Of a stretch of DNA of 64,000 nucleotides, positions 1,310 through 15,750 are shown one piece after another. Source of the DNA: a virus (taxonomy: Duplodnaviria > Heunggongvirae > Uroviricota > Caudoviricetes). The notes under the pieces were generated by a model. That model was not told the origin of the DNA. It saw only the letters and a program-made list of their open reading frames with translations, and made no database searches. Every line of letters begins with the position of its first letter. Position 1 is the stretch's first letter. Location: the IMG/VR virus record IMGVR_UViG_3300029305_003072. The stretch is one strand, 5' to 3'. A program made the position numbers and the translations under genes.

Positions 1310-1346
1310 CATATATATTATATCATATTTTTTTGAAAAAATCAAT
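1310..1346 (-). promoter_or_regulatory. early promoter cassette copy A (TTGATT-17-TGaTATAAT)
   Basis: Minus-strand -35 TTGATT at plus 1340-1345 and -10 TATAAT at 1317-1322, with a 17-nt spacer. It is followed by the conserved GTAAG(G/A)TAAAGAAAG leader. The same ~60-bp cassette recurs 7 more times. Confidence 0.75.
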
Positions 1347-3057
1347 AGACGATTTTCCCGAGTAGGTCAATACGCTCTTCATCGCTCTTTGTGGCTTGCA
1401 TTTGCTTTAGCCACTCGATGGTGCGTCGACTCAAATTGCCGGCATTGAAGCCGTCCTCAGTAACATTGCGGATGTCAAATGCTTGGCGTCTATTACCCCA
1501 GCTATCTCTAACATCATACAACTGACCGAATAGAGGTTCATACTCTTCCGGATGGTTCAAACAATCTTCACAGATAGATACATAGAAGTTGTAATTAAAT
1601 CCATCACGAATTTCTTCGTTTTCAGTATCTGCAAACTGAAGATAAATGTGTGCAACGCAATCATTTCTATGATGGTCGCCGCAAACCTCACATTCACTCA
1701 GTTCATTGTGGTAACACCAGTCGCAGGCGATATAATCGTCGTCAACTGTATAGGACTCATCATATGAGCTGTGCCAGTCGCCGCAGAAATCGCAACGCCA
1801 GTGTCCGTCACACGCTCTGCACTGTACAACATGAGCATCGACCTCGTCAAGCTCAATAATATCGCCGCAGCCAGTGCAAACTGCAGGTCCAGAGAAGTTG
1901 CAAGAATAATGGTCATCATCTTCAATCTTCTGGTCTGCCACATATGCTAAACGATAATCATAGACATCATTGTACATATAATTACAGTAGAAGTTGAAAC
2001 GAATGTGTTTATCCTTGACAGTGTTCCAGCTGTCATTTTTCAGCTGAATAGTTTCTTCGGGATAAGGTCCATATCCCGGAATCTGAGTCATCAAATCTCG
2101 AATCCATCTAATCGCTACACCCTGCAAATCATCGCTGATGTAAGGATACTGACGATTTCCAAGAATGACTTCTCTTGTTACGATGTAAAGCTGACGCCAA
2201 CGCTTACTATTCCAGTTACCGCCGGGAGTCCACATAGGCTCCTTGGACTCAACATATGCCACGATGACACAAGGAGAGTTCATCATTTCGATGGTTCCCA
2301 GTCTGTAATCGCCAGGTTCGTCCATCCAGCTCATACAAGAGGTCCAGCCGCAGTTGTTATCACTCATAGTGATAAAATCAAGCGGGTGAATAGACAGGCA
2401 AAGATTACCTTTAATCTGCTTCTGGTTTAGAACTTGAGAATGTGCCTGTCGGAACAGCTCATATCCAGAAGACTTTTCTAACGGCCCGCAGCACTCTGTT
2501 TCGCCATCAGTGTAGTAGCAGCCACAACCGCTGCAGTACATGATGGGGAGTTCTACATTAAGAGCCGCCGCAATCTTACCAAGCATTTTAACAGCTTTGC
2601 AGTTAGCATTAACCACAAGAGGTCGTCCATCCTTAGTAAACTTGCCAGGGATTGTGAAACCAGGACCGGGATAAATATTGTCAACCAACATATCCCAATC
2701 TTCAACAAAGGACTTGAGGCGATAAGTCATATCAATATCGCCCATCTCGTTGCCGATATGTCGAGCAGCATCCTTATAGGCAGAAATAAAGTTACGAATC
2801 ATCTGGTGTCCGTTGTTTAAAGCGGAATACATATCATTGGACAGTTCATCTTTTGGCTTAACTAAACGAACTTCCTTTTTTACGATAAACTGCTCTCCGA
2901 ACGCCCGGAAGAACGGTTCTTTATTTTCGTCCCAAAAACGAAGGAAATATCCCATTTTGTCTAACGGAAGAGTTCCGTTACCTTCATCACCGTAGTGAGA
3001 AATATAAGACTTAAATTGTGACTTATCTTCGTCCGGGAGCCTTTCAAATATACTCAT
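1342..3057 (-). CDS. hypothetical protein, 571 aa, Cys/His-rich (zinc-binding) C-terminal region
   Basis: Long uninterrupted minus ORF with many CxxC/HxxC clusters in the last ~150 aa. Promoter cassette B lies upstream. Confidence 0.65.
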   Translation of the reverse strand: MSIFERLPDEDKSQFKSYISHYGDEGNGTLPLDKMGYFLRFWDENKEPFFRAFGEQFIVKKEVRLVKPKDELSNDMYSALNNGHQMIRNFISAYKDAARHIGNEMGDIDMTYRLKSFVEDWDMLVDNIYPGPGFTIPGKFTKDGRPLVVNANCKAVKMLGKIAAALNVELPIMYCSGCGCYYTDGETECCGPLEKSSGYELFRQAHSQVLNQKQIKGNLCLSIHPLDFITMSDNNCGWTSCMSWMDEPGDYRLGTIEMMNSPCVIVAYVESKEPMWTPGGNWNSKRWRQLYIVTREVILGNRQYPYISDDLQGVAIRWIRDLMTQIPGYGPYPEETIQLKNDSWNTVKDKHIRFNFYCNYMYNDVYDYRLAYVADQKIEDDDHYSCNFSGPAVCTGCGDIIELDEVDAHVVQCRACDGHWRCDFCGDWHSSYDESYTVDDDYIACDWCYHNELSECEVCGDHHRNDCVAHIYLQFADTENEEIRDGFNYNFYVSICEDCLNHPEEYEPLFGQLYDVRDSWGNRRQAFDIRNVTEDGFNAGNLSRRTIEWLKQMQATKSDEERIDLLGKIVY

Positions 3058-3089
3058 ATCGGCTACCTCTCATCTCTTTCTTTATCTTA

Positions 3090-3126
3090 CATATATATTA
3101 TAACATATTTTTTATAAAAAATCAAG
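3090..3126 (-). promoter_or_regulatory. early promoter cassette copy B
   Basis: -10 at plus 3097-3102 and -35 at 3120-3125, spacer 17; same cassette sequence as copy A. Confidence 0.75.
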
Positions 3127-3165
3127 AAAGATTTTTATCTCCCACGAGGGGAGCCCTAAGGCTCC

Positions 3166-4455
3166 TTACTCGTGATGCTCACCGCAGTGGCACTCATGAG
3201 CACCAGCGGGCTTATTAGCGTTCATCATCAGCATAAAGGGAAGCATATCACCCATCTTACTGTCACCGCTCATCAGAGCATACATCATCAGAGGGTTGGA
3301 CATATCGATGTTGCCACCATTAGCCATCAGCATCAGAGGCAGCATATCCTTCACACCATTGCCATCCTCAGACAGCATCATCATCAGACCCAGATTACCA
3401 AAGGGATTATTGGCATCTGCATTGAAAGCATTGCCCAGGAAGTTGACAACCTTGGTAACGAAATTGAAGCCGAAGGGGCTCTTAGTCAGCATAATCTCCT
3501 TACGCTCGCCAGAAACAGGGTCGACTGCAACGACAGCCTTACCGTCCTCAGCCTTGCCAACAACGAACATAGGAACGCTCATATGAACGATGATATCGCC
3601 AACAGCAACATCATTGATAGCCACAGGCATCTTATACATGAACTTGGAACCCTCGAAGTTGAACACATCGACGTCCATAATCTCGCCAGCCTTGGCATCA
3701 TAAGACACCCAAGTACCGACCTTATTTTTCACAGCCATACCGTAAACAGACATACGGACGACATTGTTATTCATAGGACCGAAGTCAAAATTGAAACCCT
3801 TCATAGTAGAATTCTCCTTTTTATTTTCATATTTATTCAAGACATTCTCAACCTTGGAGGTCAAGTCGTCCAGTCTTTTATCAAACTCTGCTTTATCGAC
3901 CTTGGTGTCGATTACGCAAGAAAGTGTGGGACCGGTATCTGCCGCAATAGCAGAAATACCAATGTCTGCCAGCTTATCTTTTGTGATTGCCAAAGAATGC
4001 TTTAGAGCCTCGCCGCAATCAATAGCGATATTTTTTGCAGACTCAATGGCTGCAATATCCAGTTTATAATTCTTAACAGGATATACACTACTGGAGGTGC
4101 ATTGTACCGTTGCATCAATAGGCACCTCGAGTTCATTACTCAAAGGCATATTATAATAATTCCAGTCGTGGTCATATTCCTTGACATCAATCAGATTTTC
4201 AAACAGAAAGTCGCCAAAACTTTCATCACCACGACAAAAGCGATGATATTCATCTTCGTGACCAATAATCACGACAAAGGAATCGCCGCACTTTTCAATG
4301 ATAACTTGAGTTTCATTATCTCTGCTGTATTTCAGCTTTCGCCACATATGGTAATCCATCTTATGAAACACACCATCATAGACGAAATCTTCAAAATCTG
4401 ATAGATAGCCACAAAAATCCCACCAACTCATATAGAGTTTAGAACCTGTCGGCAT
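3166..4455 (-). CDS. hypothetical protein, 429 aa, Met-rich C-terminus ending in a HECHCGEHHE metal-binding-like tail
   Basis: Uninterrupted minus ORF; overlaps the next upstream gene by a few nt, suggesting an operon. Confidence 0.6.
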   Translation of the reverse strand: MPTGSKLYMSWWDFCGYLSDFEDFVYDGVFHKMDYHMWRKLKYSRDNETQVIIEKCGDSFVVIIGHEDEYHRFCRGDESFGDFLFENLIDVKEYDHDWNYYNMPLSNELEVPIDATVQCTSSSVYPVKNYKLDIAAIESAKNIAIDCGEALKHSLAITKDKLADIGISAIAADTGPTLSCVIDTKVDKAEFDKRLDDLTSKVENVLNKYENKKENSTMKGFNFDFGPMNNNVVRMSVYGMAVKNKVGTWVSYDAKAGEIMDVDVFNFEGSKFMYKMPVAINDVAVGDIIVHMSVPMFVVGKAEDGKAVVAVDPVSGERKEIMLTKSPFGFNFVTKVVNFLGNAFNADANNPFGNLGLMMMLSEDGNGVKDMLPLMLMANGGNIDMSNPLMMYALMSGDSKMGDMLPFMLMMNANKPAGAHECHCGEHHE

Positions 4456-4768
4456 ATCTTTTACTTACCTCTCTCTCGATATATTCTATATCATCGGAGG
4501 TCAAAGCATCTGGACTTAGACCTACCGCATATAGCAGATTTGCCTGCGTTGCACTGTCATTCGGGTCATCAGCTGCCGCAAGCCTTTCAACATAATCATC
4601 AATGCAAGTCTGATGATATGCGTAGGCAGAAAATGCCAGATTGTTTATTGAAGTATGTCTGTCCGGTGCAAACAGACCAAATTCACAATGGCTGTGAACG
4701 CCGTGATTATTGTGGTCGCACTCATTATGCTCAGCGCGATGAGCATCACAAAACCAACTCATACGCAT
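4439..4768 (-). CDS. hypothetical protein (109 aa, His/Cys-rich)
   Basis: Minus ORF with ATGA-type start/stop overlap to the neighbouring gene. Confidence 0.5.
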   Translation of the reverse strand: MRMSWFCDAHRAEHNECDHNNHGVHSHCEFGLFAPDRHTSINNLAFSAYAYHQTCIDDYVERLAAADDPNDSATQANLLYAVGLSPDALTSDDIEYIEREVSKRYADRF

Positions 4769-5094
4769 TACCCCATAGAGAAATGACCCGCTCCGAAGTG
4801 TTTGAAGTAATCAAACAGGTTTACTTCGGTGCTTTCGCCGCAGTCTTCGCAATGAGCTTCGAAAGTCAGCTCCACATAAGGATACTCATCTTTCAGAGCA
4901 GTCAGAGCCTCGGCCGCAGCCTTCGCCAGCTCATTGAAACGCTTTTCCTTACGATGCATCTTTTCAAAGTGGATAGCCTTTTCCAGAGCCTCCAGCTCGT
5001 CCCAAGACATATCAATGAAATCTACATTCTTACACATAGTATCAATCCTTTCAAATGTGATGCGGTTTTGGATATTATTCTGGCGAGACCGCAA
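4768..5094 (-). CDS. hypothetical protein (108 aa)
   Basis: Minus ORF and first gene of the transcript from cassette C. It has an unusually long ~270-nt leader that contains the tRNA-like element. Confidence 0.55.
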   Translation of the reverse strand: MRSRQNNIQNRITFERIDTMCKNVDFIDMSWDELEALEKAIHFEKMHRKEKRFNELAKAAAEALTALKDEYPYVELTFEAHCEDCGESTEVNLFDYFKHFGAGHFSMG

Positions 5095-5205
5095 ACTCCC
5101 AGGGGGATAGGTTTTGTCATTTTGGATTACCTGCCCACAACCTCACTAGCCAGTTTTACGACTCCATCTGCTGTCGGTCAAGATACAAGACATATTACAT
5201 AACGT

Positions 5206-5282
5206 CGCTCTAACCAGTTGAGCTACTGGGCCATGTGGCGACCCAGGCAGGACTCGAACCTGCAACCCCCGGCGTGACAGGC
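5206..5282 (-). tRNA. permuted/split tRNA-Asp(GTC)-like element: 3' part (anticodon loop CTGTCAC, T-arm GCAGGTTCGAGTCCTGC, acceptor CTGGGTC, G, CCA; plus 5236-5282) followed by 5' part (GGCCCAG TA GCTCAACTGGTTAGAGC G; plus 5206-5232)
   Basis: Read on the minus strand: ...GCCTGTCACGCCGGGGGTTGCAGGTTCGAGTCCTGCCTGGGTCGCCA CAT GGCCCAGTAGCTCAACTGGTTAGAGCGACGTT. The 3' piece matches the bacterial tRNA-Asp anticodon/T-arm layout and has an encoded CCA. The 5' piece is a textbook acceptor plus D-arm whose first 7 nt pair perfectly, with one G-U, with the 3' acceptor strand. The 3' half precedes the 5' half, so no canonical tRNA can be folded. Confidence 0.5.
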
Positions 5283-5319
5283 AAATTGAAATTGCTGTTA
5301 ATGTCTTTCTTTATCTTAC

Positions 5320-5355
5320 ATATATATTATATCATATTTTTTTATAAAAATCAAA
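5320..5355 (-). promoter_or_regulatory. early promoter cassette copy C
   Basis: -10 at 5326-5331 and -35 at 5349-5354, spacer 17. Confidence 0.75.
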
Positions 5356-5387
5356 GAGAACTCTTTTCGCCAGGTGGCTGGCTGTCC

Positions 5388-6104
5388 TTACTTCACCAAA
5401 GAACAGCGAGTAAGGACAGTAGTTTCCACATTGCGAATGACCTTATGGTCTTTTACAGTACCCTTAATATGACGCTTATCGCCAACTTCCCAACTCTTGG
5501 AAGCAGTGCTCCACAGATACTGATTGCCAGCAGCATCAACCATATAGTGAATAGTCTGCTCACCATAGTAGCCATCACGCTTATGAGCAACGATAACTTC
5601 GACCTCAAGGTCAAGTCTTTCACCTACAGTGCCCTGGAAAGTAGAATCGCCCTTGTCATACAGGATAGACTCAACCGCAGACTTAACATCTGCATCAGGC
5701 TTCAGACAACCTTCTTCTTCACCAACCAGTTCCCACTTTAGCTCAATAGGCTCAAGGCCAGCAGGCAGGTCGAAAGGAACTGCTTCAGTAGATACAATGT
5801 ACCAGCCCCACCACTTACAGTATCTTGCGATGGACTTCTGGAACCATTCCAGGTTAGCATATGTATCACCCTTGAAGATAGTTACATAGCCATTCTCAAA
5901 GCCGAGAACCTGCTTCTGAGTCTTGAAAACTTTTGCAGGAGCATCTACTTTTTCGCCATACATTTTAGCGTACTCAGCTTCAGTATACCAACGAACCTTA
6001 CGAACAGTGCCGGACTTTTCATTCTGAACATTTACATACATCTTACCTTTTTCGCAGAAAGGCTCGCCCAACTGTTTCATACTCTGAAAAGATTTTGCTA
6101 CCAT
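5388..6104 (-). CDS. hypothetical protein (~238 aa)
   Basis: Minus ORF. The start was chosen at ATG MVAKSFQ, preceded by GAGGAGG from the end of the upstream small gene. Confidence 0.6.
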   Translation of the reverse strand: MVAKSFQSMKQLGEPFCEKGKMYVNVQNEKSGTVRKVRWYTEAEYAKMYGEKVDAPAKVFKTQKQVLGFENGYVTIFKGDTYANLEWFQKSIARYCKWWGWYIVSTEAVPFDLPAGLEPIELKWELVGEEEGCLKPDADVKSAVESILYDKGDSTFQGTVGERLDLEVEVIVAHKRDGYYGEQTIHYMVDAAGNQYLWSTASKSWEVGDKRHIKGTVKDHKVIRNVETTVLTRCSLVK

Positions 6105-6105
6105 A

Positions 6106-6297
6106 TTATTCCTCCTCAATCATAGCTTCACAGACGGGGCAAATCATACCGACGCTGATATAGGGATAATCACACTTGTAAATAGGCTCGCCACATTCGG
6201 GGCACTCGAAGAACTCTTCATCCCAGTCCACGTAAGCACCGAAATCTCTCTCAACAAAAGTTGCTACATACTGCCAACTCCATACCATATTTATCAT
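6106..6297 (-). CDS. small zinc-ribbon protein (63 aa; CPECGE..CPVCE)
   Basis: Minus ORF directly downstream of cassette D, with two CxxC pairs. Confidence 0.55.
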   Translation of the reverse strand: MINMVWSWQYVATFVERDFGAYVDWDEEFFECPECGEPIYKCDYPYISVGMICPVCEAMIEEE

Positions 6298-6318
6298 TTC
6301 CTTTCTCTTTCACTTTCT

Positions 6319-6354
6319 ATATATATTATATCATATTTTTTTATAAAAATCAAA
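6319..6354 (-). promoter_or_regulatory. early promoter cassette copy D
   Basis: -10 at 6325-6330 and -35 at 6348-6353, spacer 17. Confidence 0.75.
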
Positions 6355-6387
6355 GAAGCCTACTAGCATCTAGTAGGCTTCTTATCT

Positions 6388-6705
6388 TTACCACATTACA
6401 TCAACGACCACATAGTCGTACTCAGGAAACATATCCCGCAGAAAAGTCTTGATGCAATTTTCCAGACGGATGTGGGCTTCATCCTGCCAAGAATGACCCT
6501 CATATTCATCAAGCTCGTCAATGTAATATTTGCAGCACACATCGTTCATGTAGAAATTATCAAACATTAAACGACGAATACCATTGTGCTTTGCTCGAAT
6601 CTCCTGGATGAATTCAGGTCCATATTGAGCTTCAAGAGCATTTTCTAAATCTCCAACCCAAAAACAGGGAACGGTTTTATATTTCATTATATACACCCTC
6701 CACAT
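6388..6705 (-). CDS. hypothetical protein (105 aa)
   Basis: Minus ORF in a tightly packed leftward operon driven by cassette E. Confidence 0.5.
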   Translation of the reverse strand: MWRVYIMKYKTVPCFWVGDLENALEAQYGPEFIQEIRAKHNGIRRLMFDNFYMNDVCCKYYIDELDEYEGHSWQDEAHIRLENCIKTFLRDMFPEYDYVVVDVMW

Positions 6706-8238: not shown

Positions 8239-8281
8239 ATATATCAATTCCTTTCTGAACTTTTCTTATCCTTTACTTTCT

Positions 8282-8317
8282 ATAAATATTATATCATATT
8301 TTTTTATAAAAATCAAT
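8282..8317 (-). promoter_or_regulatory. early promoter cassette copy E
   Basis: -10 at 8288-8293 and -35 at 8311-8316, spacer 17. Confidence 0.75.
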
Positions 8318-8326
8318 AGACCCTCT

Positions 8327-8360
8327 GAAAACCAGAGGGTCTATTTTTTTACATATATTT
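8327..8360. terminator. stem-loop terminator (TAGACCCTCTG/CAGAGGGTCTA) with T-run, probably bidirectional
   Basis: An 11-bp stem followed by TTTTTTT on plus; it overlaps the stop of minus gene 8349-8576. Confidence 0.55.
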
Positions 8361-8625: not shown

Positions 8626-8661
8626 ATTATTATTATACAAAAATTTTTTCAGAAAATCAAC
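8626..8661 (-). promoter_or_regulatory. promoter (TTGATT-17-TATAAT), cassette variant H
   Basis: -10 at plus 8632-8637 and -35 at 8655-8660. Confidence 0.65.
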
Positions 8662-8789: not shown

Positions 8790-8818
8790 TTGATTTTGGT
8801 TTAAAATTTTGGTATAAT
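8790..8818 (+). promoter_or_regulatory. rightward promoter TTGATT-17-TGgTATAAT
   Basis: -35 at 8790-8795 and -10 at 8813-8818; it shares the AAATTTTnTGGTATAAT core with the late promoters at 34112, 50283 and 60357. Confidence 0.7.
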
Positions 8819-10540: not shown

Positions 10541-10986
10541 TTTATTTTAAGATTTTGGCAGCCACACCCATATTCACGCATACAACCATGTTCTACGTGA
10601 TAACATGGGCAACCTTGCGCGCAGGTGGCTTCAACGCGCTTGGGGTTCTGAATTTGTTGCTGTACTACCATATTGCCTTGGCGTTGCTGAACCATCACAT
10701 ACGCTGGCTCCTGGCAGGTTTCGTCGGTATTGAACCGACATTGGATTACTTCCTTGCAAGTTTTGCAAGGGTGGCCGGTCGCGCAATTGTGGCAGAAAAG
10801 ATGGAATACTCCATTTTCCTCTTGGAGGTAGCTATTGCTGAGAATGAGATTACCACAAATCTCACAAATTTTGAGTTCTGTGGTAAAATACGGACAACCG
10901 CTTTCGTCCTCCATATTCGCATTAAAGACCGGGCACATCCCATTTTTTAGCGCCTTGAGGGCGCAGTCGCCGCATTTTCGTTCCAT
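10525..10986 (-). CDS. Cys-rich zinc-binding protein (153 aa, ~8 CxxC pairs)
   Basis: Minus ORF with multiple CxxC motifs. Confidence 0.5.
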   Translation of the reverse strand: MERKCGDCALKALKNGMCPVFNANMEDESGCPYFTTELKICEICGNLILSNSYLQEENGVFHLFCHNCATGHPCKTCKEVIQCRFNTDETCQEPAYVMVQQRQGNMVVQQQIQNPKRVEATCAQGCPCYHVEHGCMREYGCGCQNLKINWRNK

Positions 10987-10995
10987 ATTTTCTCC

Positions 10996-11349
10996 TTAGC
11001 AGTAACAATATGTTACGATATAGATGTTTGGATGACCCCACTTAGTATTGATTTCTTCAATGCTAATGCCGCAGTCAACCAACATTGCACCATACTTGGC
11101 ACCAAATGTGCCGTCGTCCTGTAAAACAGGCAAAGTCGCCAGAGTTTCGAGGCTTTTGGCATCGCCCCAACCGTCGAGTTCATAGACCATCTCACCGAAG
11201 AACCATTTCTCGTCCATATCGTAGCAGAACATTTCGTCCATAATTTCGTTATAGCGCTGAGGATTAGTGTCTTCGAGATGGCCCATTAACTCTTGTCTTT
11301 CTCTCTCAGAGAGAATATAACCTACGCCAACAAAAGTTCCGAAATCCAT
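10996..11349 (-). CDS. hypothetical protein (~117 aa)
   Basis: Minus ORF starting at MDFGTF, preceded by GGAGG; ATGG overlap with the upstream gene. Confidence 0.5.
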   Translation of the reverse strand: MDFGTFVGVGYILSERERQELMGHLEDTNPQRYNEIMDEMFCYDMDEKWFFGEMVYELDGWGDAKSLETLATLPVLQDDGTFGAKYGAMLVDCGISIEEINTKWGHPNIYIVTYCYC

Positions 11350-11594
11350 TATGCTTCCTCCAAGCAAGTCTTAATCTTTTCCCACACTTCGAAGGAAACG
11401 ATAGGGCACGCATCAAAGAGTTCCATATGCTGGATTTCCAACAGGTTATCACCGTACAGATGCTGCTCCAGATACTGGACCGCACTGGTAAAATCATTGG
11501 CGAAACAAAAACCGTGTTCAACTTTATCCTGGTTGGCTACATCGTCAACGACGAGAACACGGAACATACAAATAAAATTAAAGTCCTGCATCAC
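11349..11594 (-). CDS. hypothetical protein (81 aa)
   Basis: Minus ORF. Confidence 0.45.
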   Translation of the reverse strand: MMQDFNFICMFRVLVVDDVANQDKVEHGFCFANDFTSAVQYLEQHLYGDNLLEIQHMELFDACPIVSFEVWEKIKTCLEEA

Positions 11595-12045
11595 GCTCTA
11601 CTCCTTTCGTACAGGGGGTATCCAGGTCAACCGGCTCATTGTCCAGGCCGCACAGATACGTATTCAAAACTTCATCGTAAAAAGAATTGTCACAATATTT
11701 ACAGATGAGTGTATCACTGGGTACCTTATCAGCACAATCGCGGCAAATTCTATTGGCGTGTTTATAGTCTTCCGCAATCACGATAGTCCATCGTTTCCAA
11801 TGGTATTGCGGGTCGTCGGTGATATCACCAGTAATATCGTAGATACGACCGTCAATTTCGGTTGCAAAGTGGTTTATGACTTCATCGTAAACGGGAGTTG
11901 TGCAGAATGGACCGAAACGCTTACGCAGGATAGTCATAAACTGATAACACATTCCGTTGGAAAAACAGTCTACGACTTGCGGCCCGAACTTCTGGAACTG
12001 CTCGATGAAGTTAATGATTACATCATGCTTCGTTTCGAGTTTCAT
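11578..12045 (-). CDS. hypothetical protein (155 aa, CxxC pair near C-terminus)
   Basis: Minus ORF. Confidence 0.5.
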   Translation of the reverse strand: MKLETKHDVIINFIEQFQKFGPQVVDCFSNGMCYQFMTILRKRFGPFCTTPVYDEVINHFATEIDGRIYDITGDITDDPQYHWKRWTIVIAEDYKHANRICRDCADKVPSDTLICKYCDNSFYDEVLNTYLCGLDNEPVDLDTPCTKGVERDAGL

Positions 12046-12310
12046 CTACTCTGATACCTCCATATATGCGGTCCAGCGCCCGCAGTTTTGCCATTAAGTC
12101 GAAGTTATCAAGGCTTCCACCTTCGCCGTTCATACCTCTTTGGATTGCGGCTGCCACGATTTCCGGTACGAAAAAGCCAGGTACGAGATATTCTTTTTCG
12201 GCGTGAGCATAATCAATACGCACGATTGTACCCTCATCACACTCTTCACAGTTGATATCGTACATCGGGTCCAGATGAATGATTGAGGAGCCAATTCTCA
12301 TTGTTTTCAT
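12023..12310 (-). CDS. hypothetical protein (95 aa)
   Basis: Minus ORF. Confidence 0.45.
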   Translation of the reverse strand: MKTMRIGSSIIHLDPMYDINCEECDEGTIVRIDYAHAEKEYLVPGFFVPEIVAAAIQRGMNGEGGSLDNFDLMAKLRALDRIYGGIRVDETRNEA

Positions 12311-12612
12311 TCTTCATCCTCCTTCGGACAGAAAGCATCATATCGCACATTCAGTACGATATGATGGAGCTCGCCGCATTCAATCCAAGCGAAAGATACG
12401 GATGCACCGCTTTCATCAGGATAAGAATCCCAGATGCAGTTCCACTTGACGCGGCAGGACAGGAGGAAGGACTCCACGGCCCGCATACACTTCTCGGTGT
12501 ACTCCTTGGAGGACACGATGAAATCCGCACGGTCAATTAAGTTGTAGATGCCATCTTCAATGGCGGAAGGGGTGAAACCCGCAGAACCGATAGCCATATA
12601 GTTTACCTCCAA
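12307..12612 (-). CDS. hypothetical protein (101 aa)
   Basis: Minus ORF and first gene after cassette F. Confidence 0.5.
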   Translation of the reverse strand: MEVNYMAIGSAGFTPSAIEDGIYNLIDRADFIVSSKEYTEKCMRAVESFLLSCRVKWNCIWDSYPDESGASVSFAWIECGELHHIVLNVRYDAFCPKEDEE

Positions 12613-12724
12613 AGTCGATTTTTTCAGCCTTTTTCTTTCGACGAGAGAAAATGACGGGAAACGATTTTTACGGAGTCCGTCAGCAATCTTTCATCTTTTA
12701 TCTTTATCTCTTTCTTTACTTTAC

Positions 12725-12760
12725 ATATATATTATATCATAAATTTTTTATAAAATCAAT
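12725..12760 (-). promoter_or_regulatory. early promoter cassette copy F
   Basis: -10 at 12731-12736 and -35 at 12754-12759, spacer 17. Confidence 0.75.
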
Positions 12761-12857
12761 TAGCAAATAAATAGTTGCGGTTTGGAGAATCGTAGTGTCT
12801 AGGGGTCCAGAGACGAGAGATTGGTTTAGCTGACATAAAAGCGCTTTGGAGCCTCCC

Positions 12858-13060
12858 GGCCGCAAACTTTAAATGAAAAATGTTAAAAAATTAGACAGCT
12901 ATATTTTTGTTAAAAAATTAGACTTCTATGTATTTGGTTAAAAAAATAGACATCTATATATTTGTTAAAAAAATGTGTTAAAATTTTGTACATCTATATA
13001 AAATGTTAAAAATTTAGACTTCTATATCGTGGGTAAAACTTGTTAAATGGTTAACAACTT
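12858..13060. repeat. iteron array: >=5 direct repeats of GTTAAAAAATTAGAC-N3-CTATAT at ~28-30 bp spacing
   Basis: Repeats are visible at ~12866, 12894, 12922, 12950/12965 and 12990, and three more copies lie at 13715-13780 on the other side of the gene. Confidence 0.65.
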
Positions 13061-13086
13061 TTCTTAAGAATAGTTGGAAGGGAGGT

Positions 13087-13707
13087 GTGATTGTGTTAAA
13101 GATTCAACCAAATTCAAGACAGGTTCCCAAGGCTAAAGATATTTGTTCGAATAAAAAGTATTATGATATTCTTTATGCTTATCTTCAGTGTATCTCAACA
13201 AGAGATGAGAAGAGCGGAACTAGATATTTTTCAAAGAAAGATATAAATTTTAGTAAGCTTGGTGAGATGTTTAACTTATCGAGACAGACGGTTTCAACGA
13301 AGTTTAAGAATCTAAAGGAATTGGGTTTAGTTGTTGAAGCAGGAAAAGATACATATAGATTAGTTGAATTAAGTGCTGATTTAGCTTCTTTGGTTCCATA
13401 TGGGACATTAAAGTTAATTACAGACACTTTAAGTGAGAATTCTATTTCAACTTATATTTATTTATTGAATTGTTATTATGCTAATGAGTGTCGTCCGTTT
13501 TAGTTTACATTAGACCAGGTAAAGAGTTATATTGGAATTAGCACAAGCACGAGAAGTAATAATGATACCGTAACGAATATCCTGTATGTATTAGAAAAGG
13601 TGGGGCTGATTAAGTATTCATTGACTACAATGAAACAAGAGGCGGACACTTTTCAAAATGTGAAAACAATTTATCAATTAGACTGGTTAACTAATACGTT
13701 GAATTAA
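13087..13707 (+). CDS. replication initiator / replisome-organizer-like winged-HTH protein (~206 aa), read through an in-frame TAG at 13501-13503
   Basis: GTG start after GGAAGGGAGG, with an HTH segment LSRQTVSTKFKNLKELGLV. The frame stays open for 68 codons past the TAG and encodes a second wH-like segment (DQVKSYIGISTSTRSNNDTVTNILYVLEKVGLIKY) ending at TAA 13705-13707. Confidence 0.55.
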
Positions 13708-13714
13708 AGTGTTA

Positions 13715-13780
13715 AAAATTTAGACGCATGAGTGTTAAAATTTTGTACATACTTTGTTAAAAAAATAGTATCCTTATAAA
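13715..13780. repeat. second iteron cluster (GTGTTAAAAATTTAGAC..., TGTTAAAATTTTGTACAT...)
   Basis: Same repeat family as 12858-13060, flanking the initiator-like gene. Confidence 0.55.
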
Positions 13781-13872
13781 TAGAAATAGAGAACTGTCAA
13801 TCGTAAGAGGCTTTAAATGTCCCTTCGGGCCATTTAAATCCTCTATACGCGGGGCCGGAGGGAGGTATAGAA

Positions 13873-14091
13873 GTGATTATCTTAGATGAAAACAAATTAA
13901 GAAATGGAACTATTCGGATGATTGGAGAAGATTATGGTATGGAATTAAGTTCTCCAATTGAACATCCAGAATGGTATGAACAAGAAATCGATATGATTGT
14001 AGATAAATTTAAGTTTGATATTGATAGTTTCAAAGAAAGATTAATTGAAACTATTAAAAATGGTATTAAAGTAGAATTGAAGGTGAAGTAA
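13873..14091 (+). CDS. hypothetical protein (72 aa)
   Basis: GTG start after GGAGGGAGG and TAA stop; it overlaps the next small ORF by 1 nt. Confidence 0.5.
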   Translation: MIILDENKLRNGTIRMIGEDYGMELSSPIEHPEWYEQEIDMIVDKFKFDIDSFKERLIETIKNGIKVELKVK

Positions 14092-14276
14092 TGGAAGGTT
14101 TTGAGATACCTAAGGGAGCAGTAAAATTCGCTATGGGTAGTTATGATAAATTACCAGAGAATGTGGTAGAAGTGAAGGTATATATGCGAAGTGGAGACCC
14201 AAAGATGTATATAGTACCAATTTAGAAAAATGAATCGAAAATTGAAATTGAACCTTTGCTAGATAATCCATTTTTA

Positions 14277-14305
14277 ATTTGAAAATTAAAATAAAATTTT
14301 GTATA
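14277..14305 (+). promoter_or_regulatory. rightward promoter TTGAAA-17-TATAAT
   Basis: -35 at 14277-14282 and -10 at 14300-14305. Confidence 0.6.
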
Positions 14306-14397
14306 ATAATAGTAGGAAGAAAAACTGATTTCAAAATCTCGTTTGAAAATCTGAAATTGAAATCAAAAATGAAATGAAAATCGAAAGGAAAAATGAG

Positions 14398-14928
14398 ATG
14401 ACATTTGATTATAATACTTTAAAAAGAGCAGCTAGAGATGGATTAAGACTAGGTAACTGGAATGGTAAGGCTGTATTTGCTGCTCCCTCTAGTAGATTGG
14501 ATAACTTGGGAAGTGGTGCTTATTATATTCTCTATGATGATGAGAATAAGATTGTCGCCAAGACCAGCAACGGATGGAAGAGTTATGGTGAGGTAAGTGA
14601 GAGTGGTAGTGTAAGCGAGTACAGTAGTGTCCGCACTTATAGAACTCCCGCAGAGACAGCAGCAGCCGCACGCAAGGCTTCTACTTCTGGAATGAGATAC
14701 AGTAGTGAACCCATTCCGCAGGCTACTATGACTGTAAGCTATGCGGATTCCGCAGGAACTGGAGGTACTTACTCTCCTGGATATAACAGAACTGAAAGAC
14801 CTGTGGGAGATGTGAAGCTGGGCCTTGATGTTGAAGGCACATTGAAGAAGGCAAGAGAGATGACGGTTGAGAGCCTCTTGGAGGGATTCTTGCCGGAAGT
14901 TGATTTTGGCGTAATGGCTAAAGGTTAA
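14398..14928 (+). CDS. hypothetical protein (~176 aa, Ser/Thr/Gly-rich)
   Basis: Plus ORF. ATG 14398 is preferred over 14374, which is too close to the promoter; a terminator follows. Confidence 0.5.
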   Translation: MTFDYNTLKRAARDGLRLGNWNGKAVFAAPSSRLDNLGSGAYYILYDDENKIVAKTSNGWKSYGEVSESGSVSEYSSVRTYRTPAETAAAARKASTSGMRYSSEPIPQATMTVSYADSAGTGGTYSPGYNRTERPVGDVKLGLDVEGTLKKAREMTVESLLEGFLPEVDFGVMAKG

Positions 14929-14945
14929 GTCACTTCGCTTCGCTC

Positions 14946-14980
14946 GTGACTTTAGGGGAACACTGTAATGGTGTTCCCCC
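14946..14980 (+). terminator. rho-independent terminator (GGGGAACAC..GTGTTCCCC + TTTTTTT)
   Basis: A 9-bp stem followed by a T-run. Confidence 0.8.
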
Positions 14981-15104
14981 CTTTTTTTGCTCTTTTGGAA
15001 GAAATTGTGTGTTTTGCGGAGGTTTTGCGAGAGTGTGGTGGCCGATCGGCCCCAGGTATATGAATCGTATTTTCCACGTCCCCGTCACCGTTAAATTCAC
15101 ATAT

Positions 15105-15148
15105 AAAAAAATAACTCCCAGACCTTTGACAATCTGGGAGTTTCTTTC
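15105..15148. terminator. bidirectional terminator (A-run, ACTCCCAGA..TCTGGGAGT, T-rich)
   Basis: A 9-bp stem flanked by AAAAAAAA and TTTCTTTC, downstream of minus gene 15218-15685. Confidence 0.65.
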
Positions 15149-15217
15149 ATAATTCAATTTGCCTGCTCTTGGTCTTCGTAGCTAGCTATAGAATAAACAG
15201 ACGTCTTTCTCATCACA

Positions 15218-15685
15218 TTAATTAAACATCTTGATAAAATCGGCCAGAATTTGCTCGTCGCTCTTTGCCACAGGAGTAATTCTGCCGCTCGCAGGACCAG
15301 GGTGATGAAGACGCACTGAGCCGCTCTTGTCGGAGTCCAGCTTAGCCTCCAGGTCCGCAAACATCTTCTTCAAATCGCGCATGGCCGCAAACATCTCAGT
15401 GAAAGCCGCAACCAGCTGGTCCATTTCCTCGTCGGAAAGGGTCATCTCATCGGGGTCCATACCCTCCAAAATAGCCAGCTCCTTGATGATATCGACCATC
15501 TCTTCAATTAGGTCTCTCTTGGTGGCTTCCTTCTCTACCTCAGCCTGCTTTGCGGCCTCGGCCTCTAGAGCAGCATTGTGCTCGTCGATAGCGGCATTCA
15601 TCATTGCGGCAATCTCGTTGCCGATAGCAGTCATATCCTCACCATTCTGCAGACGGGTCAGGAAATAATTCTTATCAATAACCAT
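15218..15685 (-). CDS. acidic coiled-coil protein (155 aa)
   Basis: Minus ORF with SD AAAGAGG and promoter 15715-15750. Confidence 0.55.
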   Translation of the reverse strand: MVIDKNYFLTRLQNGEDMTAIGNEIAAMMNAAIDEHNAALEAEAAKQAEVEKEATKRDLIEEMVDIIKELAILEGMDPDEMTLSDEEMDQLVAAFTEMFAAMRDLKKMFADLEAKLDSDKSGSVRLHHPGPASGRITPVAKSDEQILADFIKMFN

Positions 15686-15714
15686 TGGTATATACCTCTT
15701 TCTTTTCTTATTGT

Positions 15715-15750
15715 ATTATTATTATACAAAAAAATTTTATAAAAATCAAA
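15715..15750 (-). promoter_or_regulatory. promoter cassette variant G (TTGATT-17-TATAAT)
   Basis: -10 at plus 15721-15726 and -35 at 15744-15749. Confidence 0.7.

What the first reader, a model, noticed from the sequence alone, without database searches (positions are those of the whole stretch)
1310..15750. Eight copies of a ~60-bp early promoter cassette with a conserved AG-rich transcribed leader
Near-identical minus-strand cassettes lie at 1310-1346, 3090-3126, 5320-5355, 6319-6354, 8282-8317, 8626-8661, 12725-12760 and 15715-15750. Each is TTGATT, then 17 nt of ..AAAAAAATATGA, then TATAAT ATATAT GTAAG(A/G)TAAAGAAAG. All have an extended -10 (TGn). Translating across them on the plus strand produces the recurrent artefact peptide FFILHIYYIIFFYKNQ in the ORF track. 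The cassettes likely drive strong host-RNAP early transcription and may be mobile within the genome.
Basis: seen in the sequence. Interest (0 to 1): 0.6.

Follow-up and report, generated by a model that had tools for sequence, protein, structure and literature searches.

The report
Standardised phage promoter–leader cassette, clade-wide
A gut/rumen phage that rewrites the TAG stop codon starts each of its non-late transcription units (protein genes, tRNAs, a small RNA) from one almost invariant ~41-base housekeeping-type promoter, often fused to the previous unit's terminator; the same cassette is found nearly unchanged in dozens of distantly related phages.

Summary
The repeats are real, but there are not eight of one kind. 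Six minus-strand sites (-35 at 1345, 3125, 5354, 6353, 8316, 12759) and a missed plus-strand site (15764) form one tight family. Sites 8660 and 15749 belong to another promoter class with no TGn and a different leader.

The family is a canonical sigma-A/sigma-70-type promoter: TTGATT, 17 bp, TATGnTATAAT. It is followed by a conserved initial transcribed region (ATATAT-R-K-AA-RR) and a C-free purine leader.

The exact 29-mer occurs in about 56 IMG/VR phage contigs and 14 mis-binned MAG contigs, in 71 distinct contexts. Flanking genes there are only 30-80% identical in protein.

About 45% of copies abut a hairpin, so TTGATTTTT doubles as the terminator U-tract. About 72% precede SD+ORF with a median 28-nt leader, and 13% precede tRNAs. 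One window copy drives a YrlA-like RNA, and another is the nearest promoter upstream of a phage RF2 gene.

The phage is a phAss-1 relative. Late genes at 34-64 kb are TAG-recoded; cassette-driven genes use the standard code.

Autonomous mobility is not supported. Recombination at cassettes has modest support. The closest analogue is the PeSL cassettes of T4-like phages. I rate this a new variant of a known kind.

The parts
1294..1347 (-). Cassette 1. -35 TTGATT 1340-1345, -10 TATAAT 1317-1322, putative +1 G at 1310. The leader begins with a 5' hairpin GTAAGG..CCTTAC. It drives the 134-aa gene 844-1248. It is also the nearest promoter upstream of the RF2 gene (1-771), which lies beyond terminator 798-818.
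   Evidence: (35.7 bits). The TGA stop of the 571-aa gene (1342-1344) lies inside the -35 hexamer.
3073..3128 (-). Cassette 2, the T6-AT-A6 TATGT variant. -35 3120-3125, -10 3097-3102, putative +1 at 3090. A 33-nt leader precedes the ATG at 3057 of the 571-aa gene 1342-3057.
   Evidence: (24.4 bits). The same variant, including 8 nt upstream (AATCTTTC), recurs twice more in the same phage (L106 16708 and 18599).
5303..5357 (-). Cassette 3, with the exact 29-mer. -35 5349-5354, -10 5326-5331. It is followed by a YrlA-like tRNA-mimic RNA rather than an ORF.
   Evidence: (42.8 bits).
5180..5291 (-). YrlA-like (Y RNA-like) candidate RNA transcribed from cassette 3.
   Evidence: Rfam RF02553 scores 41.9 bits, below the gathering score of 69. 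E = 6.9e-6 over the whole window and 4.2e-8 locally. ARAGORN finds no tRNA.
6304..6356 (-). Cassette 4, with the exact 29-mer. -35 6348-6353, -10 6325-6330, putative +1 A at 6318. A 30-nt leader precedes the ATG at 6288. It drives the 63-aa and 243-aa genes (6106-6297, 5388-6119).
   Evidence: (42.6 bits).
6353..6383 (-). Terminator hairpin of the upstream unit (14 bp, -19.7 kcal/mol). Its T-tail is the cassette's own TTGATTTTT.
8267..8319 (-). Cassette 5, with the exact 29-mer. -35 8311-8316, -10 8288-8293, putative +1 A at 8281. A 43-nt leader precedes the ATG at 8238. It heads the run of small genes from 8247 down to 6388.
   Evidence: (40.6 bits).
8315..8345 (-). Terminator hairpin (flagged on both strands) abutting cassette 5. 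Its T-tail is TTGATTTTT.
   Evidence: -18.9 kcal/mol.
12709..12761 (-). Cassette 6 (T4-ATA6-TTTATG variant). -35 12754-12759, -10 12731-12736. A 127-nt conserved leader precedes the operon running from 12597 down to 9408.
   Evidence: (21.7 bits). Orthologous cassettes sit in front of the same operon in L097, L071 and L030.
15762..15796 (+). It fires into a non-coding stretch holding three ACCGGTCGG motifs and faces promoter 16027(-).
   Evidence: (24.0 bits).
8632..8660 (-). NOT a family member. This is a promoter of the A-tract/T-tract class (TTGATTTTCTGAAAAAATTTTTGTATAAT) with no TGn. It drives the 75-aa gene 8349-8576.
   Evidence: D19; no HMM hit.
15721..15749 (-). NOT a family member. 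It belongs to the same other class (TTGATTTTTATAAAATTTTTTTGTATAAT, leader AATAATACA) and drives the 155-aa gene 15218-15685.
   Evidence: D19; 6.4 bits, partial.
8790..8818 (+). Other-class promoter, divergent from 8660, driving the FNT-like membrane protein 8851-9420. Together with 8349-8576 it forms a ~1.1-kb block (about 8325-9407) that relatives lack at this position.
   Evidence: (D16).
1..771 (-). N-terminal 257 codons of a phage release factor 2 (the SPF motif falls within this part; the GGQ motif at about residue 265 lies just beyond the window edge). It follows terminator 798-818 directly and has an SD but no promoter of its own.
   Evidence: (prfB TIGR00020, 445.5 bits against a cut-off of 370).

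Best explanation
The repeat is a standardised transcription-start module of a TAG-recoding gut/rumen phage related to phAss-1.

Anatomy. Each copy is a strong housekeeping-sigma (sigma-A/sigma-70-type) promoter:
- a -35 hexamer TTGATT
- a 17-bp spacer T5-AT-A7
- a Gram-positive '-16' TRTG motif (TATG)
- a perfect -10 hexamer TATAAT
- an AT-only discriminator, ATATAT.
Behind it lies a conserved initial transcribed sequence (+1 A/G, then K-A-A-R-R) and a C-free purine leader that runs into the Shine-Dalgarno sequence.

Payloads. The phage uses this one module to start most units of its standard-code (pre-late) region. The payloads are small protein genes, tRNAs, a YrlA-like RNA and, by terminator read-through, RF2.

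Terminator fusion. In about half of the copies the preceding unit's terminator hairpin abuts the -35 element. TTGATTTTT then serves both as the terminator U-tract and as the -35 plus upstream spacer, giving compact, insulated units.

Why it is so conserved (inferred). The roughly 41 conserved positions (~50 bits of information) are more than sigma recognition needs. I attribute the excess to overlapping functions under purifying selection: the U-tract, spacer geometry, start-site choice and promoter escape from a tight-binding promoter, and an unstructured leader. A small genome-specific homogenisation is added on top. The identical patches occasionally serve as junctions for homologous exchange of modules.

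Shown versus inferred. Shown here: sequence anatomy, positions, conservation, terminator fusion, payload types and the coding split. Inferred: recognition by host RNAP, promoter strength, early/middle timing and the role of the initial transcribed sequence.
For: Promoter anatomy and placement. The sites carry TTGATT, 17 bp and TATAAT with TG in the seven members. All are intergenic and co-oriented with the downstream gene.

Statistics. The pattern matches 4 times against 0.00 expected.

Clade-wide conservation.
- The exact 29-mer occurs in 85 IMG/VR stretches and 17 MAG stretches, with 71 distinct flanks.
- Conservation starts abruptly at the first T of the -35 hexamer. It continues at about 0.6-1.6 bits per position to +6, and C stays at about 0-1% to roughly +22.
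- Flanking genes are only 30-80% identical in protein and 66-84% in DNA.
- Across 236 cassettes in 71 contigs, the mean between-contig distance is 1.97 of 29 positions.

Terminator fusion. 45% of about 190 copies have a hairpin of -8 kcal/mol or stronger in the 40 nt upstream, against 16% in a control window. In 70 of 85 such cases the hairpin ends 0-2 nt before the -35 hexamer. The window examples are 6353-6383 and 8315-8345. phAss-1 terminators keep their own T-tract before TTGACA.

Payloads. 129 of 178 copies are followed by an SD plus ORF, with a median 28-nt leader. 24 of 178 are followed by tRNAs, and these keep the same initial transcribed sequence. One window copy precedes a YrlA-like RNA. 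RF2 lies behind cassette 1.

Timing.
- Late plus-strand genes are TAG-recoded; the tape measure has 3126 codons with 51 in-frame TAG.
- Reading TAG as sense changes nothing on the minus strand at 1-34 kb.
- phAss-1 carries about 24 copies of a sister cassette (TTGACATAAAAAAATTTTTATGGTATAAT plus the same ATATATAGAAA) in front of RNR, ThyX and tRNA arrays including Sup-CTA.

Literature. The initial transcribed sequence can change promoter output more than 10-fold. Purine content correlates with productive yield, and GA/GG near +6 favours escape (PMC5961368).
Against: - There is no transcript data, so the start site, strength, timing and the identity of the polymerase or sigma factor are all inferred.
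- Invariance of the spacer is not expected for a plain sigma-A promoter and may instead indicate a trans-acting factor.
- phAss-1 uses the opposite tract order (A7T5). This argues against a single DNA-shape requirement and for lineage-specific co-evolution or concerted change.
- Only 2 of the 7 window copies have strong fused hairpins.
- The HMM used to collect variants biases the variant set toward the consensus.
- The host is unknown, and the MAG bin taxonomies are inconsistent.
Confidence: 0.75

Rival explanations
1. The cassette is a regulated 'middle' promoter rather than a plain one. Its invariant spacer (T5-AT-A7-TATG) and/or initial transcribed region would be the recognition site of an unknown phage-encoded factor. 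That factor could be a repressor, an activator, or a MotA/AsiA-style RNAP appropriator. It would switch this promoter class on or off as a block, and so time RF2, tRNA and suppressor expression and the change of genetic code. This reading is compatible with the best explanation for promoter function; it differs on why the spacer is invariant.
For: - The spacer and the region from +1 to +6 are conserved at 1.0-1.7 bits per position, even in non-exact copies, across phages whose proteins are 30-50% identical.
- The window holds three distinct classes of sigma-A-like promoter that differ mainly in spacer and leader.
- In phAss-1 all ~24 copies share a different spacer (A7T5) but the same initial transcribed sequence. 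This is a concerted, lineage-specific change.
- Within-genome copies are slightly but significantly more alike than copies from different genomes (0 of 500 permutations).
Against: - No candidate regulator was identified. No sigma or anti-sigma domain was found among 20 window proteins scanned.
- The -35 TTGA, the TRTG motif and the perfect -10 are sufficient for unaided initiation.
- The only dyad is the low-complexity TTTTTATAAAAA.
- Part of the T-tract conservation is explained by its use as a terminator tail.
Confidence: 0.25
2. The cassettes are autonomous or passively mobile repeat elements (MITE-like, or copy-paste promoter 'parasites') that spread within and between genomes. On this view their promoter-like look is secondary.
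For: - Many near-identical short copies occur per genome: at least 12 in this phage.
- L001 and L020 differ by a clean one-unit indel, cassette plus ~240 bp plus cassette against a single cassette.
- Homology breakpoints between contigs that are at least 88% identical lie near cassettes in 20 of 73 cases, against 4.7% expected. They are not enriched near cassette-less gene starts (0.5x).
- Three copies in this phage share 8 extra upstream bases.
Against: - There are no terminal inverted repeats or target-site duplications, and no transposase.
- Homology among window copies ends within about 71 nt (D7).
- Every copy is co-oriented with, and at a fixed distance from, a downstream gene or RNA.
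- Orthologous positions keep position-specific variants across phages. For example, the 'TTTC' spacer and the GTAAGG..CCTTAC leader sit before the 134-aa gene in both the window and L082, and T6ATA6-TATGT sits before the 571-aa gene in both the window and L098. This indicates vertical descent.
- One apparent cassette-adjacent indel (L036) is a homing-endonuclease-like gene insertion, not a cassette exchange.
- The breakpoint enrichment may partly reflect fast-evolving hairpins next to the cassettes.
Confidence: 0.05
3. The cassette is read by a phage-encoded sigma factor or RNA polymerase rather than by the host housekeeping holoenzyme.
For: - The cassette shows lineage-specific uniformity.
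- Many large phages encode their own sigma factors or polymerases.
- Only 64 kb of a genome of at least 155 kb was inspected.
Against: - The elements are textbook sigma-A: TTGA at -35, a 17-bp spacer, TRTG, and TATAAT.
- No sigma or RNAP domain was seen in the window proteins scanned.
- Early and standard-code genes must be expressed before any phage factor exists.
Confidence: 0.07

Closest known systems
PeSLs (promoter-early stem-loops) of T4-like myoviruses RB49/phi1, PST and nt-1 (PMC2839356, PMC4122927)
   Same: - Both are short composite intergenic cassettes, repeated many times.
- Each is made of a strong sigma-70-like early promoter plus a stem-loop that terminates upstream transcription.
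- Each ends in the SD and start codon of the downstream, mostly ORFan, gene.
- Both are associated with indels and module swaps between related phages.
   Different: - There is no sequence relationship to PeSLs.
- The host is likely Bacillota and the phage is a large phAss-1-like, TAG-recoded phage, not a T4-like myovirus.
- Here the hairpin lies strictly upstream and borrows the promoter's TTGATTTTT as its U-tract. In PeSLs the stem-loop position varies.
- Here the spacer and the initial transcribed region are also near-invariant across distant genomes, and the payloads include tRNAs and ncRNAs.
- Evidence for recombination is much thinner than for PeSLs; no mini-circle data exist.
phAss-1 (OQ749652.1) repeated promoter, not described in its paper (PMC10607447 contains the word 'promoter' 0 times)
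   Same: - It is the closest named phage (portal 40.6% aa identity).
- The genome has the same layout: late genes on the plus strand are TAG-recoded, and the minus strand holds a long region punctuated by about 24 copies of one promoter.
- Both have the same initial transcribed sequence ATATATAGAAA(A/G)TGAG and the same TATG/TGTG extended -10.
   Different: - The -35 hexamer is the consensus TTGACA.
- The spacer is A7T5 (TAAAAAAATTTTTATG) instead of T5ATA7.
- Terminators keep their own T-tract.
- The window family's exact 29-mer is absent.
Strong early promoters of coliphage T5 (e.g. PN25) and the early host-takeover promoters of Bacillus phage SPO1 (own knowledge; role of the initial transcribed sequence from PMC5961368 and PMC12464699)
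   Same: - These are families of very strong host-RNAP promoters.
- They are conserved beyond the two hexamers, with an AT-rich spacer and a purine-rich initial transcribed sequence that governs promoter escape.
- They are clustered in front of small early genes.
   Different: - Those families are looser consensus sets within one phage. They are not a ~41-nt near-identical unit shared by phages with 30-50% protein identity.
- They are not fused to terminators in this way.
- In this window the SPO1/T5-like array of tiny genes is actually served by a different promoter class (TTGACAAA..TGTGCTATAAT, 16-30 kb).
Gram-positive '-16 region' (TRTG) extended -10 promoters (own knowledge: Voskuil and Chambliss 1998)
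   Same: TATG or TGTG lies immediately upstream of TATAAT in the family members.
   Different: That is a general promoter feature and does not explain the invariance of the rest of the spacer or of the initial transcribed sequence.

Membership tests
sigma-70/sigma-A extended -10 promoter | A -35 hexamer resembling TTGACA | tested here: met
   TTGATT (4 of 6 matches) in all members.
sigma-70/sigma-A extended -10 promoter | A 17 +/- 1 bp spacer and a -10 hexamer TATAAT | tested here: met
   The spacer is exactly 17 bp and the -10 matches 6 of 6 in all seven members.
sigma-70/sigma-A extended -10 promoter | TGn (TRTG) immediately upstream of the -10 hexamer | tested here: met
   TATG(A/T)TATAAT in the seven members. 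The feature is NOT met at 8660 and 15749, where the scan gives TG 'no'.
sigma-70/sigma-A extended -10 promoter | Initiation by housekeeping holoenzyme at about 7 nt past the -10 hexamer | not testable with these tools
   No transcript or biochemical data are available. The +1 position (offset 35; A 75%, G 24%) is inferred.
PeSL-type composite promoter/terminator cassette | A repeated strong sigma-70-like promoter in intergenic regions, ending in the SD and start codon of the next gene | tested here: met
   129 of 178 copies are followed by an SD plus ORF, with a median 28-nt leader. The window copies are listed.
PeSL-type composite promoter/terminator cassette | An adjacent stem-loop acting as terminator or attenuator of upstream transcription | tested here: inconclusive
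   Hairpins of -8 kcal/mol or stronger are present in 45% of copies against 16% in the control, ending 0-2 nt before the -35 hexamer. They are strong in only 2 of the 7 window copies. Termination itself was not measured.
PeSL-type composite promoter/terminator cassette | Indels or replacements between related phages have their junctions in the cassettes | tested here: inconclusive
   - One clean one-unit indel, L001 vs L020.
- Breakpoints are enriched 5.8x near cassettes, against 0.5x near other gene starts.
- A window-specific 1.1-kb block lies next to cassette 5.
- However, the contigs are non-independent, a hairpin-divergence artefact is possible, and one case is a homing-endonuclease-like insertion.
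PeSL-type composite promoter/terminator cassette | Cassette-to-cassette mini-circles in infected cells or virions | not testable with these tools
   Experimental (inverse PCR; PMC2839356).
PeSL-type composite promoter/terminator cassette | Belongs to T4-like myoviruses, with sequence related to the T4-type early-promoter consensus | tested here: not met
   The phage is phAss-1-like and the cassette sequence is unrelated. It is therefore an analogue, not a member.
MITE / IS-like mobile repeat | Terminal inverted repeats, target-site duplication, orientation independent of genes | tested here: not met
   Conservation begins abruptly at the -35 hexamer and fades in the leader. Repeat homology is at most ~71 nt. 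All copies are co-oriented with their downstream payload.
T4 MotA-dependent middle promoter | A MotA box centred at -30 replaces the -35 element | tested here: not met
   The -35 TTGA is retained at the canonical 17-bp distance. No MotA or AsiA homologue was looked for beyond the Pfam and PHROG scans.
Rfam YrlA (RF02553), for the RNA behind cassette 3 | A score at or above the curated gathering threshold (69 bits) | tested here: not met
   The score is 41.9 bits, with E = 6.9e-6 over the window. T-arm, closed acceptor stem and D-arm are aligned. This is a candidate only, and no Rsr/TROVE gene was seen.

The most novel reading that the evidence does not exclude
The invariant spacer and start region are not just a good promoter. 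They would be the address label of a clade-specific phage factor that switches this whole promoter class as a block. That class drives RF2, tRNA arrays (with suppressor tRNAs in relatives) and tRNA-mimic RNAs. The cassette would then be the transcriptional timer of the phage's change of genetic code from standard to TAG=Gln. Its uniformity would also make it a natural plug-and-play junction for exchanging gene, tRNA and ncRNA modules among these phages.
Probability: 0.2. Interest if true: 0.75.

Novelty: new variant of a known kind. Interest (0 to 1): 0.5.

Why it matters
- **Annotation.** The cassette is a simple sequence marker. It delimits transcription units and the standard-code (pre-late) region in a poorly annotated clade of TAG-recoding gut and rumen phages, where gene calling is hard.
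- **Testable mechanism.** It places RF2, tRNAs and tRNA-like RNAs under one promoter class. This gives a concrete, testable handle on how and when these phages switch genetic code.
- **Promoter biology.** About 41 near-invariant non-coding positions persist across genomes whose proteins have diverged to 30-50% identity. That is unusual for a bacterial-type promoter. It poses a clear question about what constrains spacers and initial transcribed sequences.
- **Engineering.** The unit is compact (terminator, promoter and minimal leader in about 90 bp) and is a candidate portable strong expression part for Clostridia/Bacillota.
- **Phage evolution.** It extends the PeSL idea, regulatory cassettes as module boundaries, beyond T4-like phages of Gram-negative hosts.

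Tried and rejected
- **Megablast** of window 1-16000 against 50,697 phage records gave no match. The phage had to be placed by protein, using portal tblastn.
- **ARAGORN and Rfam at gathering thresholds** found nothing in the window. The tRNA-looking sequence behind cassette 3 is not a tRNA (14.1 bits). It is a permuted tRNA-like domain that matches YrlA below threshold.
- **Minimum-free-energy folding** of that region alone was uninformative (z = -1.37).
- **Literature search** for the cassette sequence returned 0 papers. The phAss-1 paper never mentions promoters.
- **A sigma, anti-sigma or RNAP gene** to explain the class was sought with Pfam and PHROG scans of about 30 window proteins. None was found.
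- **The L036 vs L040/L011/L021 indel** looked like a cassette-mediated swap. It turned out to be a 785-bp insertion of a homing-endonuclease-like gene directly behind the leader, so it was not counted as cassette recombination.
- **An operator palindrome** was considered. Only TTTTTATAAAAA is dyad-symmetric, which is too low in complexity to argue from.
- **A CodY-box resemblance** in the other promoter class (AATTTTCTG) was considered and dropped as unsupported.
- **A translational-enhancer role for the AG-rich leader** was considered as the main explanation. It was rejected as the sole one because tRNA- and ncRNA-driving copies keep the same leader.
- **A single DNA-shape explanation for the spacer** is weakened by phAss-1 using the opposite tract order.

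Full report
**1. The observation**

Reading the minus strand at the stated places shows the described sequence. An example is TTGATTTTTTCAAAAAAATATGATATAAT ATATATGTAAGGTAAAGAAAG at 1345 down to 1296. A scan for TTGATT-N14-TGATATAAT finds all eight minus-strand sites. It also finds plus-strand sites at 8790 and 15764.

The repeats are not chance. The 35-mer core with up to 3 mismatches occurs 4 times against 0.00 expected in shuffles. The leader motif also occurs 4 times against 0.00 expected. The 'artefact peptide' FFILHIYYIIFFYKNQ is simply the plus-strand translation of 5307-5354.

The eight sites are not one family:
- A profile HMM of the family scores six of them: 1345, 3125, 5354, 6353, 8316 and 12759 (21.7-42.8 bits).
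- Sites 8660 and 15749 have an A-tract-then-T-tract spacer, no TGn and a different leader (AATAATACA).
- These two group with 8790(+), 14279(+), 34028(-), 34111(+), 50282(+) and 60356(+) (families D16 and D19).

**2. What the window is**

The window is a phage. Portal, terminase-like, virion and tape-measure matches lie on the plus strand at 34-64 kb. There is no nucleotide-level relative in INPHARED. The nearest named phage by portal protein is phAss-1, a human-gut phage of the 'code 15' clade (40.6% aa identity).

Reading TAG as sense raises the long open frames on the plus strand at 34-64 kb from 14.0 to 24.3 kb. It joins the tape measure into one frame of 3126 codons with 51 in-frame TAG. 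It changes nothing on the minus strand at 1-34 kb. The late genes are therefore TAG-recoded. The genes behind the cassettes use the standard code, with stops TAA 22, TGA 4 and TAG 2.

The phAss-1 paper states that suppressed stops are characteristic mainly of late genes (PMC10607447).

Contigs 100% identical to the window exist in four assemblies, the longest 155,655 bp. They extend 8.7 kb beyond the window's left edge. That extension holds at least five more cassettes, two of them in front of tRNAs.

The window's first 771 nt (minus strand) encode the N-terminal part of a phage release factor 2. The evidence is prfB TIGR00020 at 445.5 bits, plus SPF and GGQ motifs. The RF2 gene follows terminator 798-818 and has an SD but no promoter of its own. 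Cassette 1 is therefore its nearest upstream promoter.

**3. Anatomy of the cassette**

Every family member has these elements:
- TTGATT at -35
- a spacer of exactly 17 bp, T5-AT-A7 or one-base-shifted variants
- TATG(A/T), which is the Gram-positive '-16' TRTG form of the extended -10 (own knowledge)
- TATAAT at -10.

Using 71 non-redundant contexts that share the exact 29-mer, the unbiased flanks show three things:
- Conservation begins abruptly at the first T of the -35 hexamer. Only a T-bias is seen at -1 to -4.
- Conservation continues through ATATAT and a start region R-K-A-A-R-R at 0.6-1.6 bits per position.
- The leader contains essentially no C down to about +22.

In 103 non-exact copies, the variable positions are the three central spacer bases, the N of TGN, and a few positions around +1. 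The rest are 83-100% conserved (these copies were collected with the HMM, so they lean toward the consensus).

**4. Spread**

The exact 29-mer occurs in 85 stretches from about 56 IMG/VR contigs, many of 105-190 kb. It also occurs in 17 stretches from 14 MAG contigs. Their bin taxonomies are mutually inconsistent (Alistipes, Treponema, Succinivibrio, Clostridia and others), and several titles say 'Yak_Colon', so these are best read as mis-binned phage contigs.

Homologues of the window's genes lie next to these cassettes in conserved order. They are only 30-80% identical in protein and 66-84% in DNA.

Across 236 in-register cassettes from 71 contigs, two copies from different contigs differ on average at 1.97 of the 29 core positions. 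Copies from the same contig differ at 1.68, a small but significant genome-specific signature (0 of 500 permutations).

Orthologous positions keep position-specific variants across phages:
- The 'C' in the spacer and the GTAAGG..CCTTAC 5' hairpin lie before the 134-aa gene in both the window and L082.
- T6ATA6-TATGT lies before the 571-aa gene in both the window and L098.

Most copies have therefore descended vertically under strong purifying selection. They are not constantly overwritten.

phAss-1 itself has about 24 copies of a sister cassette, TTGACATAAAAAAATTTTTATGGTATAAT followed by the same ATATATAGAAA(A/G)TGAG. These sit on the minus strand at 55-126 kb, in front of RNR, ThyX, NAD-salvage genes and tRNA arrays that include Sup-CTA tRNAs. 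The spacer has thus changed in concert in that lineage, while the start region stayed the same.

**5. What the cassettes are attached to**

*Upstream.* 45% of about 190 non-redundant copies have a hairpin of -8 kcal/mol or stronger in the 40 nt before the -35 hexamer. The figure is 16% for a control window 100 nt further up (p = 1e-4). In 70 of 85 such cases the hairpin ends 0-2 nt before the first T.

The hairpin sequences all differ, so they belong to the upstream unit, not to the repeat. Their U-tract is the cassette's own TTGATTTTT. In the window this is clear at 6353-6383 and 8315-8345. In phAss-1, where the -35 is TTGACA, terminators keep a separate T-tract. This fits the idea that TTGATTTTT is a dual-use sequence.

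*Downstream.* Of 178 copies, 129 are followed by an SD plus an ORF of at least 35 codons. The median leader is 28 nt, with an interquartile range of 25-36. Much of the 'AG-rich leader' is therefore simply the start region running into the Shine-Dalgarno sequence.

Another 24 of the 178 are followed by tRNAs within 330 nt, and these keep the same start region. The conservation is therefore not explained by translation alone.

In the window, cassette 3 (5354) drives a permuted tRNA-like RNA with T-arm, closed acceptor stem and D-arm. It matches Rfam YrlA at 41.9 bits, below the gathering score of 69, with E = 6.9e-6 over the whole window.

**6. How it most likely works**

*Shown here:*
- canonical housekeeping-promoter geometry
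- intergenic placement, co-oriented with the payload
- fusion to upstream terminators
- payload types
- a coding split between cassette-driven and late genes
- extreme conservation.

*Inferred:* the host sigma-A holoenzyme initiates about 7 nt after TATAAT, at offset 35 (A 75%, G 24%). The near-perfect extended -10 gives tight binding. The AT-only discriminator and the purine start region (..AGAAAG / GTAAGA) then set the start site and help escape. The literature records more than 10-fold effects of the initial transcribed sequence on promoter output. It also records a correlation of purine content with productive yield, and GA/GG near +6 favouring escape (PMC5961368; PMC12464699).

The C-free leader keeps the 5' end unstructured.

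*Timing* is also inferred. The window holds a second, more consensus promoter class (TTGACAAA..TGTGCTATAAT). There are 36 such sites (including close variants) at 16-30 kb, each before a tiny ORF. A similar set lies at the end of the phAss-1 genome. That class looks like the immediate-early 'takeover' set. The cassette class is therefore better called pre-late (early to middle) than simply early.

**7. Mobility**

There are no terminal repeats or target duplications, and no larger duplicated flanks. Repeat homology is about 71 nt at most. Autonomous mobility is not supported.

Evidence that the identical patches act as recombination junctions is modest:
- (a) L020 has cassette, about 240 bp, then cassette, where 90-94% identical L001 has one cassette. 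The junction lies inside the cassette.
- (b) Internal ends of homology at 88% identity or more between contigs lie within 45 nt of a cassette in 20 of 73 cases, against 4.7% expected. They are not enriched near cassette-less gene starts (0.5x).
- (c) In five relatives the 9408-gene orthologue is followed directly by terminator, cassette and the next gene. The window has an extra ~1.1 kb here (about 8325-9407). This block carries the FNT-like gene and a 75-aa gene with their own, other-class promoters, which are the two 'odd' sites 8660 and 8790.
- (d) A 105-aa gene family sits directly behind cassettes in different neighbourhoods in different phages.

Caveats apply. The contigs are not independent. 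Hairpins next to cassettes evolve fast and can end BLAST alignments. One striking indel (L036) is a homing-endonuclease-like gene inserted right behind the leader.

**8. Comparison with what is known**

The closest described system is the PeSL cassettes of T4-like phages. These are composite strong sigma-70-like early promoters plus terminator stem-loops, ending at the SD and ATG of ORFans, which mediate modular shuffling (PMC2839356, PMC4122927).

The present cassette works like a PeSL but is not a member. It differs in these ways:
- The sequence is unrelated.
- The phage type and probable host are different.
- The hairpin is strictly upstream and shares the promoter's T-run.
- The spacer and start region are near-invariant.
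- The payloads include tRNAs and ncRNAs.

Families of strong early promoters with extended conservation are also classical in T5 and SPO1 (own knowledge). No paper in the library contains the cassette sequence, and the phAss-1 paper does not discuss promoters.

**9. Verdict**

This is a real and highly non-random feature. It is a standardised promoter-leader module, often terminator-fused, of a clade of TAG-recoding gut and rumen phages. The count, the uniformity claim, the 'early' label and the 'mobile' suggestion need correction or remain inferred.

Novelty: a new variant of a known kind. Interest is moderate (0.5). The surprising part is the clade-wide invariance of the spacer and start region, and the link to RF2, tRNA and tRNA-mimic expression in recoded phages. 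The main open question is whether a phage factor reads the invariant spacer.

Noticed in passing
window 5180-5291 (-): A YrlA-like (Y RNA-like, permuted tRNA-mimic) RNA lies directly behind cassette 3. It scores 41.9 bits against Rfam RF02553, whose gathering score is 69, with E = 6.9e-6. No Rsr/TROVE gene was seen nearby. Similar sub-threshold hits occur in related locus L008 (40.8 and 31.7 bits).
   Followed up: partly
window 1-771 (-); full gene at L106:9654-10736: A phage-encoded release factor 2 (prfB, 445.5 bits; SPF and GGQ motifs), which reads TAA and TGA but not TAG. It follows terminator 798-818 with an SD but no promoter, so its expression probably depends on read-through from cassette 1.
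   Followed up: partly
window 34150-60293 (+): The structural genes are TAG-recoded (code 15). The tape measure 50916-60293 is one frame of 3126 codons with 51 in-frame TAG. The portal frame 38560-40257 has 3 and the terminase-like frame 36450-38219 has 1. Standard-code ORF lists fragment these genes.
   Followed up: yes
window 16000-30300 (-): A second promoter class, TTGACAAA-N9-TGTGCTATAAT: 36 sites (including close variants). Each sits 25-55 nt before a small ORF of 48-220 aa, and several ORFs are paralogous (repeat families D8, D9, D13). This looks like an immediate-early host-takeover array. HD-domain (16614-17219) and NT5C-like (25902-26414) proteins are among them.
   Followed up: partly
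window 19904, 23158, 27124, 29247 (+): Four plus-strand consensus promoters (family D10: TTGACAAATTGCTGG.GCTGTGGTATAATGGAAAT) fire straight into GC-rich hairpins (GCGCGCC..GGCGCGC, family D20). They are antisense to the minus-strand small-gene array and may produce antisense or small RNAs.
   Followed up: no
window 12882-13040 and 13087-13503 (+): Four iteron-like direct repeats (~28-36 nt, GTTAAAAAATTAGACnnCTATAT.TTTG) lie between cassette 6 and a divergent winged-HTH gene (HTH_11/MarR-like, PHROG ScpB-like). The block is 80% identical in L071. It could be an origin with its initiator, or an operator with its repressor.
   Followed up: no
window 15764-16027: Convergent promoters 15764(+) and 16027(-) stand ~230 bp apart. 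They bracket a non-coding stretch with three ACCGGTCGG motifs and a terminator-like hairpin at 15820-15837. No Rfam match was found.
   Followed up: no
L008 (IMGVR_UViG_3300018495_000082, 11108-21781): A related cassette-bearing phage carries a ROOL RNA (323 bits, L008 5852-6477 -) and about 24 tRNAs including a CTA suppressor. It also has a partial OLE-like match (52.9 bits against a gathering score of 50; model positions 436-595).
   Followed up: no
L106:14187-14915 (+) and L036:1162-1946: A homing-endonuclease-like gene family (..RFDFAI..IEFDGEQH..). The copy in this phage, just outside the window, has two in-frame stops where a repeat of the motif has Q (LC*CECGK*K vs WICQCECGN), so it is read with TAG=Gln. 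In L036 a member is inserted exactly behind a cassette's leader and replaces the start of the next gene.
   Followed up: partly
L058 7068-7156 (+): ARAGORN calls a tRNA with an 8-nt anticodon loop ('atag', amino acid unassigned) starting 19 nt after a cassette.
   Followed up: no
window 8851-9420 (+) and 32539-33351 (-): Possible auxiliary genes. One is a short formate/nitrite-transporter-family membrane protein (Pfam 69.2 bits) on an inserted block. The other is a FolD-type methylene-THF dehydrogenase/cyclohydrolase (130 and 98 bits).
   Followed up: no
window 12597-12724 (-) and 1286-1310 (-): Two leaders look functional. A 127-nt leader before the 12597 operon is conserved in L097 (..GATAAAGATAA..TTGCTGACG..CCGTAAAA). 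A 5'-terminal hairpin GTAAGG-N13-CCTTAC at the very start of the cassette-1 transcript is conserved in L082 and others.
   Followed up: no
window 16000-34000 (-): Reading TGA as sense raises stop-free stretches of at least 600 nt on this strand from 3.0 to 14.3 kb. Reading TAA as sense gives 5.9 kb and TAG gives 3.1 kb. The cause is probably composition (a T-poor strand where TGA is the commonest stop triplet), but this was not examined.
   Followed up: no
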